Positions 61,365 through 63,201 are shown, counted from the first letter of the stretch. The stretch is DNA of 64,000 nucleotides from a phage (GCA_014435945.1 GCA_014435945.1_4088.1); one strand, 5' to 3'. Notes: generated from the letters alone by a model not told the origin. Translations and numbers: made by a program.

Positions 61365-62330
61365 GTGAAAAAGCTTGATTTAAATGCAATTTCTGAAGAA
61401 GTACTGGATGAGTGTTTTGCTAGTGAAGAAGTCAACGTATTAGAGGCTCTTGATTCCGTCGAAGAAGAAGAACATGACGGTCACAAGTTTGAGAAACCAA
61501 AAACAGGTATCAGCTTAACTCGCCCTAAAGGGATAACGAATGAAATGCTCATCCAAGCAGTGCGTGATGGCATAGACGTTGAAAAGAACATTGACCTTTT
61601 GGTTCGCTACAACTATCCAATGGTAGTAAGTGTTGCACGTAAGTGTACATGTTTTATCCCATTTGAAGATAAGATTTCTTATGGTGTTGAAGGTTTAATG
61701 CGAGCAATTCATACGTTCGACACTACCAAAAATGTTAAGTTCATTACATATGCAACAACAACTGTGTACATGACAATCTATAACGAAAGTGCAGATGCTA
61801 ATTATCTAGTGCATTTCCCACGTTATATGAGTGTTAATAACATTTATGTGAAACGCTGTGTAGAAGAGTATCAAATGAAACATGGTAAATACCCAACTCC
61901 TGAGATGGTGTCAAAAGAGACTGGTATTGAGATTCAACACGTTAAGAATTGTCTAACTTACAATAACACTTATGTAGCATTGAATATGAAAATGAGTAAT
62001 GATTCAGAAAGTACATTATCTGACATTGTTACTTCAGTTGAACCTGATTACAACTTAGGCGTAGAAACTGTCAGTACCCCACTGGTACAAAGTATTGCAG
62101 AAATGATGAGTAACCTATCTGCCAAAGACCGTGAATTGATTGAACGTGTACATGGTATTGGTTCTTATTCTGAACCAGAAACGCTACGAGAAATCATTGA
62201 GAGTGGTTTTGAAGATGAGAAGGGTAAGGTCATGACTGCTCGTTCTTCATTGCACCGTAAGTACTCTGAAGCAATGGAACGACTGCGTAAGATGGTTAAG
62301 ACAAAAGGTTATGAGTTCGAAGATTTTTAA
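61365..62330 (+). CDS. sigma-70 family RNA polymerase sigma factor
   Basis: Region 2-like YGVEGLMRAIHTFD...KFITYATTTV and C-terminal region 4-like helix-turn-helix; GTG start after GGAGAAG SD. Confidence 0.6.
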   Translation: MKKLDLNAISEEVLDECFASEEVNVLEALDSVEEEEHDGHKFEKPKTGISLTRPKGITNEMLIQAVRDGIDVEKNIDLLVRYNYPMVVSVARKCTCFIPFEDKISYGVEGLMRAIHTFDTTKNVKFITYATTTVYMTIYNESADANYLVHFPRYMSVNNIYVKRCVEEYQMKHGKYPTPEMVSKETGIEIQHVKNCLTYNNTYVALNMKMSNDSESTLSDIVTSVEPDYNLGVETVSTPLVQSIAEMMSNLSAKDRELIERVHGIGSYSEPETLREIIESGFEDEKGKVMTARSSLHRKYSEAMERLRKMVKTKGYEFEDF

Positions 62331-62337
62331 GATTAAA

Positions 62338-62365
62338 GGGTTGACTTCTGTCAGCCCTTTTTTTA
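62338..62365 (+). terminator. intrinsic terminator after sigma factor gene
   Basis: GGGTTGAC / GTCAGCCC then TTTTTTT. Confidence 0.6.
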
Positions 62366-62898
62366 TGGGACAAATTTATTAATGGTGATACAATGATCTA
62401 TGTACAATCACAATGACAGTACTGGTACTGACAATCTTCCCCTACTTCACTTGAAAATGTAAAGGATAGATGAGCTTTTCATTGTAGCGAACAGCAAAAG
62501 AAACCCGTTAGATGTGGGCATAGTTTGAACCCCTCACGGCAATGCGGCTGTATAAAGAACCACGTTAGGATAGCTGGTGGTTCCTCGATAGACATATAAG
62601 GATAACACCTTACGAATTATCTAAGGGAGAGTTATCGAATTTTGTACAGGAAAGTTGCGTCCAAAATTTGAGTACTCACATTAAGTATTTGATTGCATAG
62701 ATACTTAATGAAGATACACTATGTTTAAAAGTGTAGACCGTCATATGAAACTGAAGTAGAGAGAAACAGGATGACCCGCTTTCGCACTCATTATGAGTAA
62801 TCTTCAATGCAATAGCTCTGATACCATCAGCGTCAAATTCCCCTCCATGTGGGGGGAAGAAAAATCCCTTCCTCAAATCCCGTCAATATTAAAAGTCC

Positions 62899-62927
62899 TT
62901 GACAGTTATGATTCATTCGCGTAGAAT
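62899..62927 (+). promoter_or_regulatory. sigma70-type promoter
   Basis: TTGACA-N17-TAGAAT. Confidence 0.55.
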
Positions 62928-62991
62928 ACGTAGTATTAGAAGCGAACAGACATCTCGAAGAGATGGATGATTAACCACTAAGGAATATCTA

Positions 62992-63201
62992 ATGAATTCA
63001 GTAATCTTTTTAATTATTGCTCTTTCACCACAATCTGGTGTACAAATCACCCCAATGAATTCAATGAATCAATGCATTGCAGTACGTGACAGTACGTATG
63101 AACAAGTAAACAGCGTTTCACTTAGAACAGTTGGTGAAGAATTAATGTGGTGTTACAATAGCAATACTAAAGAGAAACTAATTGTTGGACAAACTAAATG
63201 A
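62992..63201 (+). CDS. small membrane/secreted protein
   Basis: 69-aa ORF with N-terminal hydrophobic segment. Confidence 0.35.
   Translation: MNSVIFLIIALSPQSGVQITPMNSMNQCIAVRDSTYEQVNSVSLRTVGEELMWCYNSNTKEKLIVGQTK

What the first reader, a model, noticed from the sequence alone, without database searches (positions are those of the whole stretch)
62366..62990. About 600-bp intergenic region with hairpins between the sigma factor gene and an HNH endonuclease
In a genome where genes are otherwise packed with overlaps, this interval has only one doubtful minus-strand ORF. It contains several stable hairpins (GAACCACGTTAGGATAGCTGGTGGTTC; CCCCTCCATGTGGGGGG), ACAAT-containing short repeats at 62390..62450 and a consensus promoter at its 3' end. 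It could encode a larger structured RNA, hold a regulatory or origin-like element, or be a decayed gene.
Basis: seen in the sequence. Interest (0 to 1): 0.5.

Follow-up and report, generated by a model that had tools for sequence, protein, structure and literature searches.

The report
New large structured RNA, jumbo phages
The apparently empty 600-bp gap is a gene for an undescribed, intricately folded non-coding RNA of about 0.5 kb that giant enterobacterial phages keep in four copies and that some small bacterial defence islands also carry; its function is still unknown.

Summary
The interval 62367-62965 is filled by one conserved module. It has a promoter at 62367-62394, a structured RNA core of about 490 nt (about 62401-62896, + strand), and two downstream hairpins (62916-62965).

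The window comes from an Asteriusvirus-type jumbo phage. The same element occurs four times in every complete Rak2-like jumbo phage genome I could check. It occurs once in small integrative defence islands of Enterobacterales.

On 46 representative copies (<96% identical; the original 29 copies were 54-99% identical pairwise) a 118-pair model is 84.6% paired, against 36-44% when partners are slid. 78 pairs show compensatory changes, and 0 of 500 shuffles reach the observed values. The fold includes three pseudoknots and a kissing loop. G-U versus A-C counts favour the + strand.

There is no Rfam family, no conserved ORF, no plasmid copy and no description in the searchable literature. Leader, decayed-gene and mobile-repeat readings are rejected.

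All copies use the phage's second promoter class, which also precedes replication genes and tRNAs.

Function is open. I favour an RNA that acts in trans as a folded particle (about 0.45). The main rival is a ColE1/T4-like replication pre-primer (about 0.3).

The parts
62335..62360 (+). Intrinsic terminator of the upstream sigma-factor gene. This is context and not part of the RNA.
   Evidence: The terminator scan finds an 11-bp stem plus a T-run. G17 and UE-S1 annotate a terminator here.
62367..62394 (+). Promoter of the RNA. It has a -35-like GGGACA (62367-72), a 16-nt spacer, and an extended -10 TGATACAAT (62386-94). The predicted start is about 62400-62402.
   Evidence: Promoter scan. Every one of the 46 copies has the same architecture upstream. 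GRGACA-N16-TGnTATAAT is a phage promoter class: 20 on the + strand of 121Q, 0 on the - strand, against 1.5 expected. It occurs 4 times in the window. The Mimasvirus counterpart, -35 TGAAACG, is described in PMC5259590. The start site is inferred, not mapped.
62401..62896 (+). Conserved structured RNA core, about 490 nt.
   Evidence: nhmmer and the covariance model give one hit in the window: 62439-62893 and 62676-62842 at 115 bits. The 118-pair structure is 84.6% paired against 36-44% for slid controls, and 0 of 500 shuffles reach it.
62410..62485 (+). Pseudoknot PK1. The 5' strand 62410-16 (ACAAUGA) pairs with the loop 62479-85 (UCAUUGU) of the 3-bp hairpin H4 (62474-76 with 62486-88). PK1 encloses hairpins H2 (62417-30) and H3 (62442-69, loop GAAAAUGUA).
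   Evidence: Helices 1-6 are 90-100% paired, and nearly all pairs show double changes. The G17 orthologue has CUGUUGG:CCGACAG at the same place.
62491..62551 (+). H5 (62491-95 with 62547-51) encloses H6 (CCGU:ACGG, 62505-08 with 62536-39) and the variable hairpin H7 (62516-32). It also encloses the invariant stretch CACGGCAAUGCGGCU.
   Evidence: H5 and H6 are 100% paired with compensatory changes. The invariant 15-mer was used to find homologues.
62557..62583 (+). Its loop bases 62569-72 (GAUA) form a kissing interaction with 62618-21 (UAUC) in the loop of H10.
   Evidence: All 7 of 7 pairs show double changes. Mutual information supports the loop-loop pairs: A-U 21 / C-G 21 and U-A 25 / G-C 12.
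62587..62668 (+). Central region. It holds the invariant junction GAUAGACAUAUAAGG (62587-601), H9 (62601-06 with 62631-36), H10 CCUUA:UAAGG (62608-12 with 62622-26), and the H11 module AAUUUUG...CAAAAUU (62638-68).
   Evidence: The junction and UAAGGGA are invariant in 46 copies. H9 was seen by eye as GAUAAC:GUUAUC, GUGCA:UGCAC and GAUCGC:GCGGUC, but it is poorly resolved in the MAFFT alignment. H11 is 79% paired and is absent from one paralogue group.
62679..62813 (+). 3' domain. It contains the 13-bp H12 (62679-91 with 62698-710). The H12 loop 62692-97 pairs with 62808-13 (PK2). It also contains H13 (62715-35), PK3 (62740-44 with 62771-75), H15 (62752-56 with 62802-06), H16 (62759-63 with 62779-83) and H17 (62786-98).
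   Evidence: H12 is 96% paired, with 11 of 13 pairs compensatory. PK2 is 99% paired, PK3 100%, H15 99.6% and H16 100%. Model R1, built on this domain, finds all known copies and nothing else.
62819..62886 (+). 3' end of the core.
   Evidence: The conserved blocks CGUCA, GGGGG.A and CAAA.C.CGUCA are invariant in 46 copies. H19 varies only by C/U opposite G. The register of H18 is uncertain; it is only 23% paired in the MAFFT alignment.
62887..62965 (+). Downstream module. It has an A/U-rich linker, hairpin D1 (62916-46, UUCGC:GCGAA with an inner C-GUA-G triloop and the motif GAAGCGAA), and hairpin D2 (62951-65, CAUCUC-GAA-GAGAUG).
   Evidence: RNAfold of the 150 nt downstream of each of the 46 copies predicted comparable hairpins in most copies I inspected. 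C-GNA-G triloop hairpins occur at 0.67 per copy against 0.014 in shuffles, and the median MFE z is -2.7. Whether they belong to the transcript is not known.
62899..62927 (+). Sigma-70-like promoter TTGACA-17-TAGAAT for the downstream ORFs. It overlaps D1.
   Evidence: 11 of 12 consensus matches. TTGAC-type sites occur at shifted positions relative to D1 and D2 in other copies. Function has not been tested.
62676..62876 (-). Spurious 66-aa ORF. It is not a gene.
   Evidence: It is listed. The longest minus-strand open frames fall at different places and in different frames in the 46 homologues.

Best explanation
The interval is a stand-alone gene for a highly structured non-coding RNA of about 0.5 kb. 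It belongs to a previously undescribed family.

Shown:
- It lies on the + strand behind its own extended -10 promoter (62367-94).
- It folds into a conserved architecture of at least 15 helices, with three pseudoknots and a loop-loop contact. Long invariant stretches sit in the junctions.
- Four diverged paralogues are kept at fixed places in every complete Rak2-like jumbo phage genome checked.
- A single copy sits next to the integrase in small defence islands of Enterobacterales.

Inferred:
- The start is near 62401, and the 3' end is somewhere between 62896 and 62965.
- It is transcribed with the phage's second ('middle') promoter class, together with replication genes and tRNAs.
- It works as the folded RNA itself, in trans. 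It could be a scaffold or catalytic core that binds a phage or host partner, or it could self-assemble. The conserved junction nucleotides would form the active or binding surface.
- The island copies exploit or titrate the same partner during jumbo-phage infection.
For: - Family and conservation.
- Structure: RNAalifold gives 30 of 64 pairs with compensatory changes. The 118-pair model is 84.6% paired against 36-44% when slid, has 78 against 35-42 pairs with double changes, a covariation score of 0.383 against 0.07-0.10, and 0 of 500 shuffles reach it.
- Strand: 457 G-U cells against 171 A-C cells.
- Promoter: it is conserved in all 46 copies and belongs to a promoter class specific to the + strand (PMC5259590).
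- Independent transcription unit: the 121Q copy at 326.6 kb lies between two minus-strand genes. In the L260-type islands the RNA is convergent with the cI-like gene.
- No ORF.
- The complexity and invariant junctions resemble ribozymes and RNP RNAs more than known primer RNAs. This last point rests on general knowledge of RNase P, group I/II introns, OLE, ROOL and GOLLD.
Against: - There is no expression data for any member.
- No partner protein is shared between the islands and 121Q.
- A trans-acting RNA does not obviously need four dispersed, anciently diverged copies.
- The conserved A/T-rich linker and the DNA-style C-GNA-G hairpins downstream, the use of the replication-gene promoter class, and the presence in islands that lack recognisable replication genes would all fit a cis-acting origin as well or better.
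- The 3' end is undefined. There is no terminator in the window copy, and several paralogues carry an internal terminator-like hairpin before H19.
Confidence: 0.5

Rival explanations
1. This is an RNA-primed replication origin. The structured RNA is a pre-primer, like ColE1 RNA II or the T4 oriF/oriG transcripts. It would be made from a middle promoter and form a persistent hybrid near the G6/C-rich hairpin and the A/T-rich linker. The downstream hairpins on the displaced strand would load helicase or primase. Four origins would serve the 350-kb genome. The islands would carry one copy so that the helper phage replicates them.
For: - Four dispersed copies sit on the same strand at conserved positions in every complete genome checked.
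- The promoter class is shared with SSB, primase, exonuclease and topoisomerase genes (PMC5259590). T4 origins use middle-mode promoters (established knowledge).
- The module order is promoter, then a roughly 0.5-kb RNA, then the G-run hairpin, then an A/T-rich linker of variable length, then C-GNA-G hairpins. The size is close to the 555-nt RNA II (own knowledge).
- The L327 island has no recognisable replication genes.
- Defence islands can be satellites of jumbo phages (PMC12595487).
- In 121Q the spacing is more even than random (P about 0.024, own calculation).
Against: - Three pseudoknots, a kissing loop and long invariant junctions go far beyond what known primer RNAs need.
- There is no copy in 72,556 plasmids.
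- GC skew follows gene orientation only.
- Spacing in the other genomes is not significantly even: the largest gap is about 0.39-0.40 of the genome, P about 0.18.
- Internal terminator-like hairpins in several paralogues would stop transcription before the linker.
- The RNA is not G-rich.
- No antisense promoter is found in the region.
Confidence: 0.3
2. This is a cis-acting leader, such as a riboswitch or attenuator, that controls the genes downstream (the small ORFs and the HNH endonuclease).
For: In the window and in several paralogues the next genes are on the same strand, and no terminator separates them. Some paralogues carry terminator-like hairpins.
Against: - The 121Q copy at 326.6 kb is followed by minus-strand genes.
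- In the L260-type islands the RNA runs into a convergent cI-like gene.
- Downstream genes differ between paralogues.
- A separate promoter lies between the RNA and the ORF in the window.
Confidence: 0.04
3. This is a decayed protein gene, or it encodes a small protein.
For: Annotators called tiny ORFs here in some genomes. Open frames of 40-130 codons exist on the minus strand.
Against: The open frames differ in place and phase between copies. Insertions and deletions are not in multiples of three. Substitutions are compensatory in helices. The region has stayed non-coding from Escherichia phages to Xanthomonas phages.
Confidence: 0.01
4. This is a mobile or selfish element: an ORF-less group I or II intron, a MITE-like repeat, or a retron or other RT-associated RNA.
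For: It is multi-copy. An HNH endonuclease gene lies two genes downstream. One island carries a retron-type RT. UE-S1 annotates part of the element as a repeat_region.
Against: - There is no Rfam intron hit even at E<=10.
- It does not interrupt any gene.
- The paralogues are only 55-70% identical and syntenic across genera, so they did not spread recently.
- No RT is annotated in 121Q.
- The island RT lies 3 kb away on the other strand.
Confidence: 0.03

Closest known systems
GOLLD and ROOL (large ornate RNAs of phages and prophages; Rfam; PMC12286853)
   Same: Both are non-coding RNAs of several hundred nucleotides with many helices and pseudoknots. They are phage-borne, have their own transcription unit, no known partner protein and unknown function. 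Loop-loop contacts are a feature of those RNAs; here a covarying kissing loop could be intra- or intermolecular.
   Different: There is no sequence or structure match to any Rfam model. This RNA is shorter (about 0.5 kb). Each genome keeps four diverged paralogues. It is not next to tRNA genes. The hosts are Enterobacterales jumbo phages and integrative defence islands.
ColE1 RNA II pre-primer
   Same: Both are structured RNAs of about 550 nt made from a constitutive-type promoter, with a G-run/C-run element near the 3' part and hairpins downstream. In RNA II the folding decides function (own knowledge).
   Different: No plasmid carries this family. No antisense RNA I-like promoter is present. 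The tertiary structure is far more elaborate. Hybrid formation is untested.
T4 oriF (uvsY) and oriG (gene 34) origin transcripts
   Same: Both involve several dispersed sites in a T4-related genome, each with a middle-type promoter followed by an A/T-rich stretch. The promoter class is shared with replication genes (PMC5259590).
   Different: T4 origin RNAs are not known to have a conserved fold (own knowledge). Here the roughly 490-nt fold is the most conserved part.
PA5oct 'lncRNAs' ncRNA001-004 (PMC7318152)
   Same: These are abundant transcripts without ORFs in a jumbo phage related to the Rak2 group. ncRNA002 is 451 nt.
   Different: There is no similarity by nhmmer or by the covariance model of the 3' domain.
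Group I and group II introns, and RNase P RNA
   Same: They are comparable in size, pseudoknotted core, invariant junction nucleotides and variable peripheral hairpins.
   Different: No covariance-model hit. There are no exons and no D5-like hairpin. The helix order differs from the P3-P7 core (sequence inspection).

Membership tests
Any Rfam 15 family (including GOLLD, ROOL, OLE, HEARO, raiA, RNase P, tmRNA, 6S, SRP, group I/II introns) | A covariance-model score at or above the family's gathering threshold | tested here: not met
   Across the whole window only 7 tRNAs pass. At E<=10 in 62300-63050 there are only chance or terminator-like hits. Six other family members give nothing at E<=1. 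ARAGORN finds no tRNA or tmRNA here.
Group I / group II intron | It interrupts a gene whose exons join to an intact reading frame or RNA | tested here: not met
   It lies between a complete sigma-factor gene with its terminator and a complete small ORF. One paralogue lies between minus-strand genes.
ColE1-type RNA II origin | It is found in the replication regions of plasmids | tested here: not met
   blastn in distant mode finds no match in 72,556 plasmids.
ColE1-type RNA II origin | An antisense regulator (RNA I) promoter lies opposite the 5' part | tested here: not met
   No minus-strand promoter-like site is found between 62367 and 62990. This is a consensus scan only.
ColE1-type RNA II origin | A persistent RNA-DNA hybrid is cut by RNase H and extended by a DNA polymerase | not testable with these tools
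   This needs R-loop mapping or in vitro replication.
T4-type R-loop origin | A middle-class promoter followed by an unwinding element | tested here: inconclusive
   The promoter belongs to the class that precedes replication genes (PMC5259590). An A/T-rich linker exists, but it lies about 490 nt downstream, after a conserved fold.
T4-type R-loop origin | Replication starts at the site | not testable with these tools
   GC skew is uninformative. Spacing is only weakly even.
cis-regulatory leader / riboswitch | It always lies upstream of, and is co-transcribed with, a gene on the same strand | tested here: not met
   The 121Q copy at 326616-327161 is followed by minus-strand genes. In the L260-type islands the RNA faces a convergent cI-like gene.
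Protein-coding gene / pseudogene | An open frame that is conserved in place and phase | tested here: not met
PA5oct lncRNA (ncRNA001/002) | Detectable similarity in sequence or structure | tested here: not met
   nhmmer finds nothing below E=13. The best R1 hit has E=5.8 and lies away from the annotated RNAs. Only the first 40 kb of PA5oct was searched.
Retron / RT-associated ncRNA | It lies directly next to a reverse-transcriptase gene | tested here: not met
   No RT is annotated in 121Q. In island L327 the RT is 3 kb away on the opposite strand, with its own 0.5-kb upstream gap.
Dispersed mobile repeat (MITE-like) | Near-identical copies at variable sites | tested here: not met
   The paralogues are 55-70% identical and sit at corresponding positions in different genera.
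Structured non-coding RNA gene (generic) | Base pairs are kept through compensatory changes, beyond the controls | tested here: met
Structured non-coding RNA gene (generic) | A stable transcript of defined ends | not testable with these tools
   No transcriptome of an Asteriusvirus or Mimasvirus was found.

The most novel reading that the evidence does not exclude
This is a new class of large pseudoknotted RNA that is central to the life cycle of Rak2-like jumbo phages. One possibility is a structured pre-primer that defines their four replication origins. The other is a new ribozyme or RNP core made together with the replication genes. In either case, small integrase-bearing defence islands have copied it, complete with the phage-specific promoter, to hijack or sabotage the phage as satellites.
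Probability: 0.35. Interest if true: 0.9.

Novelty: categorically new. Interest (0 to 1): 0.8.

Why it matters
Large RNAs with complex, conserved folds are rare in bacteria and phages, and each one found so far has opened new biochemistry: RNase P, the self-splicing introns, OLE, and GOLLD/ROOL.

This family has unusually strong comparative support and a clear experimental handle. There are four copies in culturable E. coli phages such as 121Q, PBECO4 and G17.

It also has an unexpected second home in integrative defence islands. That points to a molecular link between jumbo phages and satellite-like islands.

If it is an origin pre-primer, it would give the first origin map for this phage group. 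It would also explain how islands without replication genes multiply. If it is an RNP or a ribozyme, it is a new one.

In practical terms, about 70 deposited phage genomes leave these loci blank or fill them with spurious small ORFs.

Tried and rejected
- Rfam at gathering and at permissive thresholds, on the window and on six relatives, and ARAGORN: nothing.
- blastn of the region against the window itself: no second copy. nhmmer and the covariance model agree.
- PA5oct lncRNAs as homologues: rejected.
- Pattern CACGGCAATGCGGCT in IMG/VR: about three quarters of the hits were chance 15-mers and had to be filtered with nhmmer. Pattern GACCGTN{26,38}ACCCGCTT was too loose and gave only noise.
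- Plasmid search: no match. E. coli complete genomes: only 2 of 5,426, both in an island next to ffs.
- A shared protein partner between the islands and 121Q by tblastn: none. Pfam, NCBIfam and PHROGs on the island neighbours p165, p186, p118 and p286: uninformative.
- GC skew as an origin signal: it follows gene orientation only. Even spacing of the copies: suggestive in 121Q, not in the other genomes.
- Conserved ORF on either strand: none.
- TGAAAC-N-TATAAT as a promoter class in 121Q: absent. The Asteriusvirus equivalent turned out to be GRGACA-N16-TGnTATAAT.
- ACAAT 'repeats': not conserved.
- Helices H7, H9, H18 and part of H19 are poorly resolved because MAFFT misaligns the variable loops. 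I could not import a hand-curated alignment.
- Literature searches found no description of this RNA. Two 2026 preprints on non-coding element discovery could not be opened.

Full report
**What is in the sequence.**
The window is from an Asteriusvirus-type jumbo phage. It is 99.4% identical to Escherichia phage BF17 over this region and about 91% identical to G17, 121Q and PBECO4. The sigma-factor ORF ends at 62330 and is followed by an intrinsic terminator at 62335-62360. The next ORF starts at 62992.

ACAAT occurs four times in 62390-62435, against 0.16 expected. Only one copy survives in the G17 and 121Q orthologues, and the four fall in different functional elements.

Rfam and ARAGORN find nothing here, even at E<=10. 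The single-sequence folding energy is unremarkable (z = -1.79).

**A conserved, multi-copy family.**
blastn shows that 62440-62896 is about 70% identical to unannotated stretches of Mimasvirus (CBB, GAP32) and of Erwinia, Serratia, Yersinia, Salmonella, Klebsiella and Xanthomonas jumbo phages. Each genome has 3-5 matching places.

Two specific patterns built from invariant blocks, combined with nhmmer, recovered the copies from IMG/VR, GTDB genomes and metagenomes. A looser 15-mer and one gapped pattern gave mostly chance hits.

The whole 121Q genome holds exactly four copies, all on the + strand. They lie at 90.3, 192.8, 247.5 and 326.6 kb, each in an unannotated gap, and a covariance model confirms them. 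Four copies at corresponding positions are also found in CBB, GAP32, Serratia phage BF, Yersinia phage fHe-Yen9-04 and three complete uncultured genomes. The window itself holds one copy.

Paralogues are only 55-70% identical to each other, while orthologues across genera are closer. The quadruplication is therefore old.

Among 50,697 phage records the family is confined to about 70 Rak2-like jumbo phages. It is absent from 72,556 plasmids.

**It is a structured RNA on the + strand.**
RNAalifold on 20 copies predicted 64 pairs, 30 of them with compensatory double changes.

I then aligned 46 representatives (<96% identical). On that alignment I tested a 118-pair model with 24 helices. I had assembled the model from covariation scans and from inspection.
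- 84.6% of cells pair, against 36-44% when the 3' partners are slid by 1-3 columns.
- 78 pairs show changes on both sides, against 35-42 in the slid controls.
- 724 cells show compensatory changes, against 118-155.
- The covariation score is 0.383, against 0.07-0.10.
- No shuffle out of 500 reaches the observed values.

The best helices are 96-100% paired, and most positions covary. They include:
- PK1, where the 5' end 62410-16 pairs with the loop 62479-85;
- H5, H6 and H8;
- the 13-bp H12;
- PK2, where the H12 loop 62692-97 pairs with 62808-13;
- PK3, 62740-44 with 62771-75;
- H15, H16 and H17.

Between the window and its 96%-identical G17 orthologue the whole PK1 helix is rewritten: ACAAUGA:UCAUUGU becomes CUGUUGG:CCGACAG.

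Mutual information adds a kissing contact between the loops of H8 and H10, 62569-72 with 62618-21. The pair counts are A-U 21 / C-G 21 and U-A 25 / G-C 12.

G-U cells outnumber A-C cells 457 to 171, which favours the + strand.

Long invariant stretches lie in junctions: CACGGCAAUGCGGCU, GAUAGACAUAUAAGG, UAAGGGA, GACCGU, GAAAC.G....ACCCGCUU and CGUCA. Peripheral hairpins differ between paralogues. One module (H11) is missing in one group and duplicated in another.

Some helices (H7, H9, H18, part of H19) are poorly resolved because the variable loops are misaligned.

No open frame is conserved in place or phase.

**Transcription signals.**
Every copy has, 20-70 nt upstream of PK1, an extended -10 box (TGnTATAAT) and a non-canonical -35 element about 17 nt before it. 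In the window these are GGGACA (62367-72) and TGATACAAT (62386-94), which predicts a start near 62401.

This is a phage promoter class. GRGACA-N16-TGnTATAAT occurs 20 times on the + strand of 121Q, never on the - strand, against 1.5 expected. It lies in front of the SSB, primase, exonuclease, topoisomerase and late-sigma genes, in front of a tRNA, and in front of all four RNA copies. The window has four such sites.

In Mimasvirus the -35 element is TGAAACG. The CBB genome paper described that class, with 18 sites that mostly lie in the DNA-synthesis region (PMC5259590). The RNA copies of those phages, and of the islands, use it.

Canonical TTGACA-N17-TATAAT promoters form a separate, larger class.

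Several paralogue groups insert a hairpin plus U-run between the start and PK1. Others carry a terminator-like hairpin just before H19. The window copy has neither.

**Downstream module.**
After the conserved tail (62874-86) comes an A/U-rich linker of variable length and then two hairpins. D1 has the loop motif GAACGnAGUGA/GCGAAGCG, and D2 has a G+C stem with a GNA triloop. In the window they lie at 62916-46 and 62951-65.

C-GNA-G triloop hairpins occur at 0.67 per copy against 0.014 in shuffles. The TTGACA/TAGAAT site overlaps D1.

The conserved module therefore fills 62367-62965, which is nearly the whole interval. No intrinsic terminator follows it in the window, so the 3' end is open.

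**A second habitat.**
True members also lie in the chromosomes of Citrobacter, Enterobacter, Silvania, Buttiauxella and related bacteria, and in 2 of 5,426 complete E. coli genomes.

In the best-resolved case (Enterobacter roggenkampii, L327) the RNA sits in a 10.8-kb island between ppdD and nadC. The gene order is: large serine integrase, RNA, p165, a cI-like repressor on the opposite strand, a cro-like gene and two unknown genes. After these come a retron-type RT with STM3845, a resolvase and GmrSD.

No replication or packaging gene is recognisable in the island. No neighbouring protein has a homologue in 121Q.

The integrases differ between island lineages, while the RNA and cI stay linked. 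A related island without the RNA also exists.

The island RNA is closest (72-74%) to the ~174-kb paralogue of the Mimasvirus, Eneladusvirus and Yersinia phages, and it keeps their TGAAAC promoter.

Defence islands that ride jumbo phages as satellites have been shown in Pseudomonas (PMC12595487). That is a precedent, not evidence for these islands.

**What it does.**
Three readings fail.
- It is not a leader. The 121Q copy at 326.6 kb lies between minus-strand genes, and some island copies face a convergent gene.
- It is not a decayed gene.
- It is not an intron or a recent mobile repeat.

Two readings remain.

(a) A trans-acting folded RNA. The elaborate, pseudoknotted, junction-conserved fold is what ribozymes and RNP cores look like. 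The gene is an independent unit with a strong promoter shared with tRNAs.

(b) An RNA-primed origin. This reading is fed by several observations:
- four dispersed copies on the same strand;
- the replication-gene promoter class;
- the module order of promoter, 0.5-kb RNA, G-run hairpin, A/T-rich linker and DNA-style hairpins;
- the presence in islands without replication genes.

Several things count against (b). The fold is far more complex than that of any known primer RNA. The family is absent from plasmids. GC skew is uninformative. Spacing is only weakly even: P about 0.024 in 121Q and about 0.18 elsewhere, by my own calculation. Some paralogues have internal terminator-like hairpins.

I put about 0.45-0.5 on (a) and about 0.3 on (b). 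That it is a structured RNA gene I hold at above 0.9.

**Comparison and novelty.**
The closest kinds are the large ornate phage RNAs GOLLD and ROOL. They match in scale, habitat and unknown function, but there is no homology. For the rival model the closest kinds are ColE1 RNA II and the T4 origin transcripts.

The RNA-seq-defined lncRNAs of the related phage PA5oct are not detectably related.

I found no description of this family in Rfam 15 or in the searchable literature. Deposited genomes leave the loci blank, call tiny ORFs, or mark a 'repeat_region'.

I rate it as a new RNA class, with the caveat that 'large structured phage RNA of unknown function' already exists as a general category.

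Noticed in passing
window 10151, 40814, 46028, 62367 (+ strand): There is a second phage promoter class, GRGACA-N16-TGnTATAAT. It is distinct from the canonical TTGACA-N17-TATAAT class, which has 8 sites in the window. One site sits directly before tRNA-Arg (46065). In 121Q the class precedes the SSB, primase, exonuclease, topoisomerase and late-sigma genes.
   Followed up: partly
window 46065-50038: This is a tRNA cluster with three tandem, near-identical tRNA-Thr(TGT) genes (49805-50038). It also holds a 92-nt tRNA that ARAGORN calls Ser with anticodon ACT (48439-48530).
   Followed up: no
L242:35195-37160 (121Q 135,194-137,161): This is a 2-kb stretch of 121Q without any annotated gene. It contains a promoter of the same GRGACA class at 135,737, so it could hold another non-coding RNA. 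The family HMM and model R1 do not hit it.
   Followed up: no
L019, L051, L011, L072, L015, L003, L099, L058 (5' ends of the RNA copies): In several paralogue groups a stable hairpin followed by a U-run, which looks like a terminator, lies within about 5-35 nt of the predicted start, before the conserved RNA. It could be an attenuator or a 5' protective hairpin.
   Followed up: no
L244:47445-48084, L044, L108, L097, L112, L120, L254, L271 (3' parts): A terminator-like hairpin plus U-run is inserted inside the element, between H18 and the conserved H19 and tail. The window copy lacks it. Short and read-through forms of the RNA may therefore exist.
   Followed up: no
window 62824-62836 and 62874-62886: Two similar motifs (A.CA.CGUCAR and AAUC.CGUCAR) change in parallel across the family: U/U against C/C, C/C against G/G, and G/G against A/A. 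They may be two sites for the same partner, or the pattern may only reflect shared ancestry.
   Followed up: partly
L327:10001-20834: This is a 10.8-kb integrative island between ppdD and nadC of Enterobacter roggenkampii. It carries a serine integrase, a cI/cro-like switch, a retron-type RT with STM3845, a resolvase and GmrSD. It has no replication or packaging genes, so it is a candidate jumbo-phage satellite.
   Followed up: partly
L326:5831-7258 (E. coli LR-29-1, NZ_AP027515): A 1.4-kb unannotated gap holds a family member. It lies in an island next to the SRP RNA gene ffs, beside an IS3-disrupted tyrosine integrase and DUF4326/DUF488/dual-OB genes.
   Followed up: partly
L240, L245 (121Q): The phage encodes an IF3-like protein, an HPF/RaiA-family protein, ClpS-, ClpA- and HslV-like proteins, RNA ligase, polynucleotide kinase and a tRNA nucleotidyltransferase. 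This points to heavy investment in translation and RNA repair.
   Followed up: no
window 62992-63201: The first ORF after the RNA module encodes a 69-aa protein with a hydrophobic N-terminus. Annotations of its start differ between 121Q (shorter ORF) and G17.
   Followed up: no
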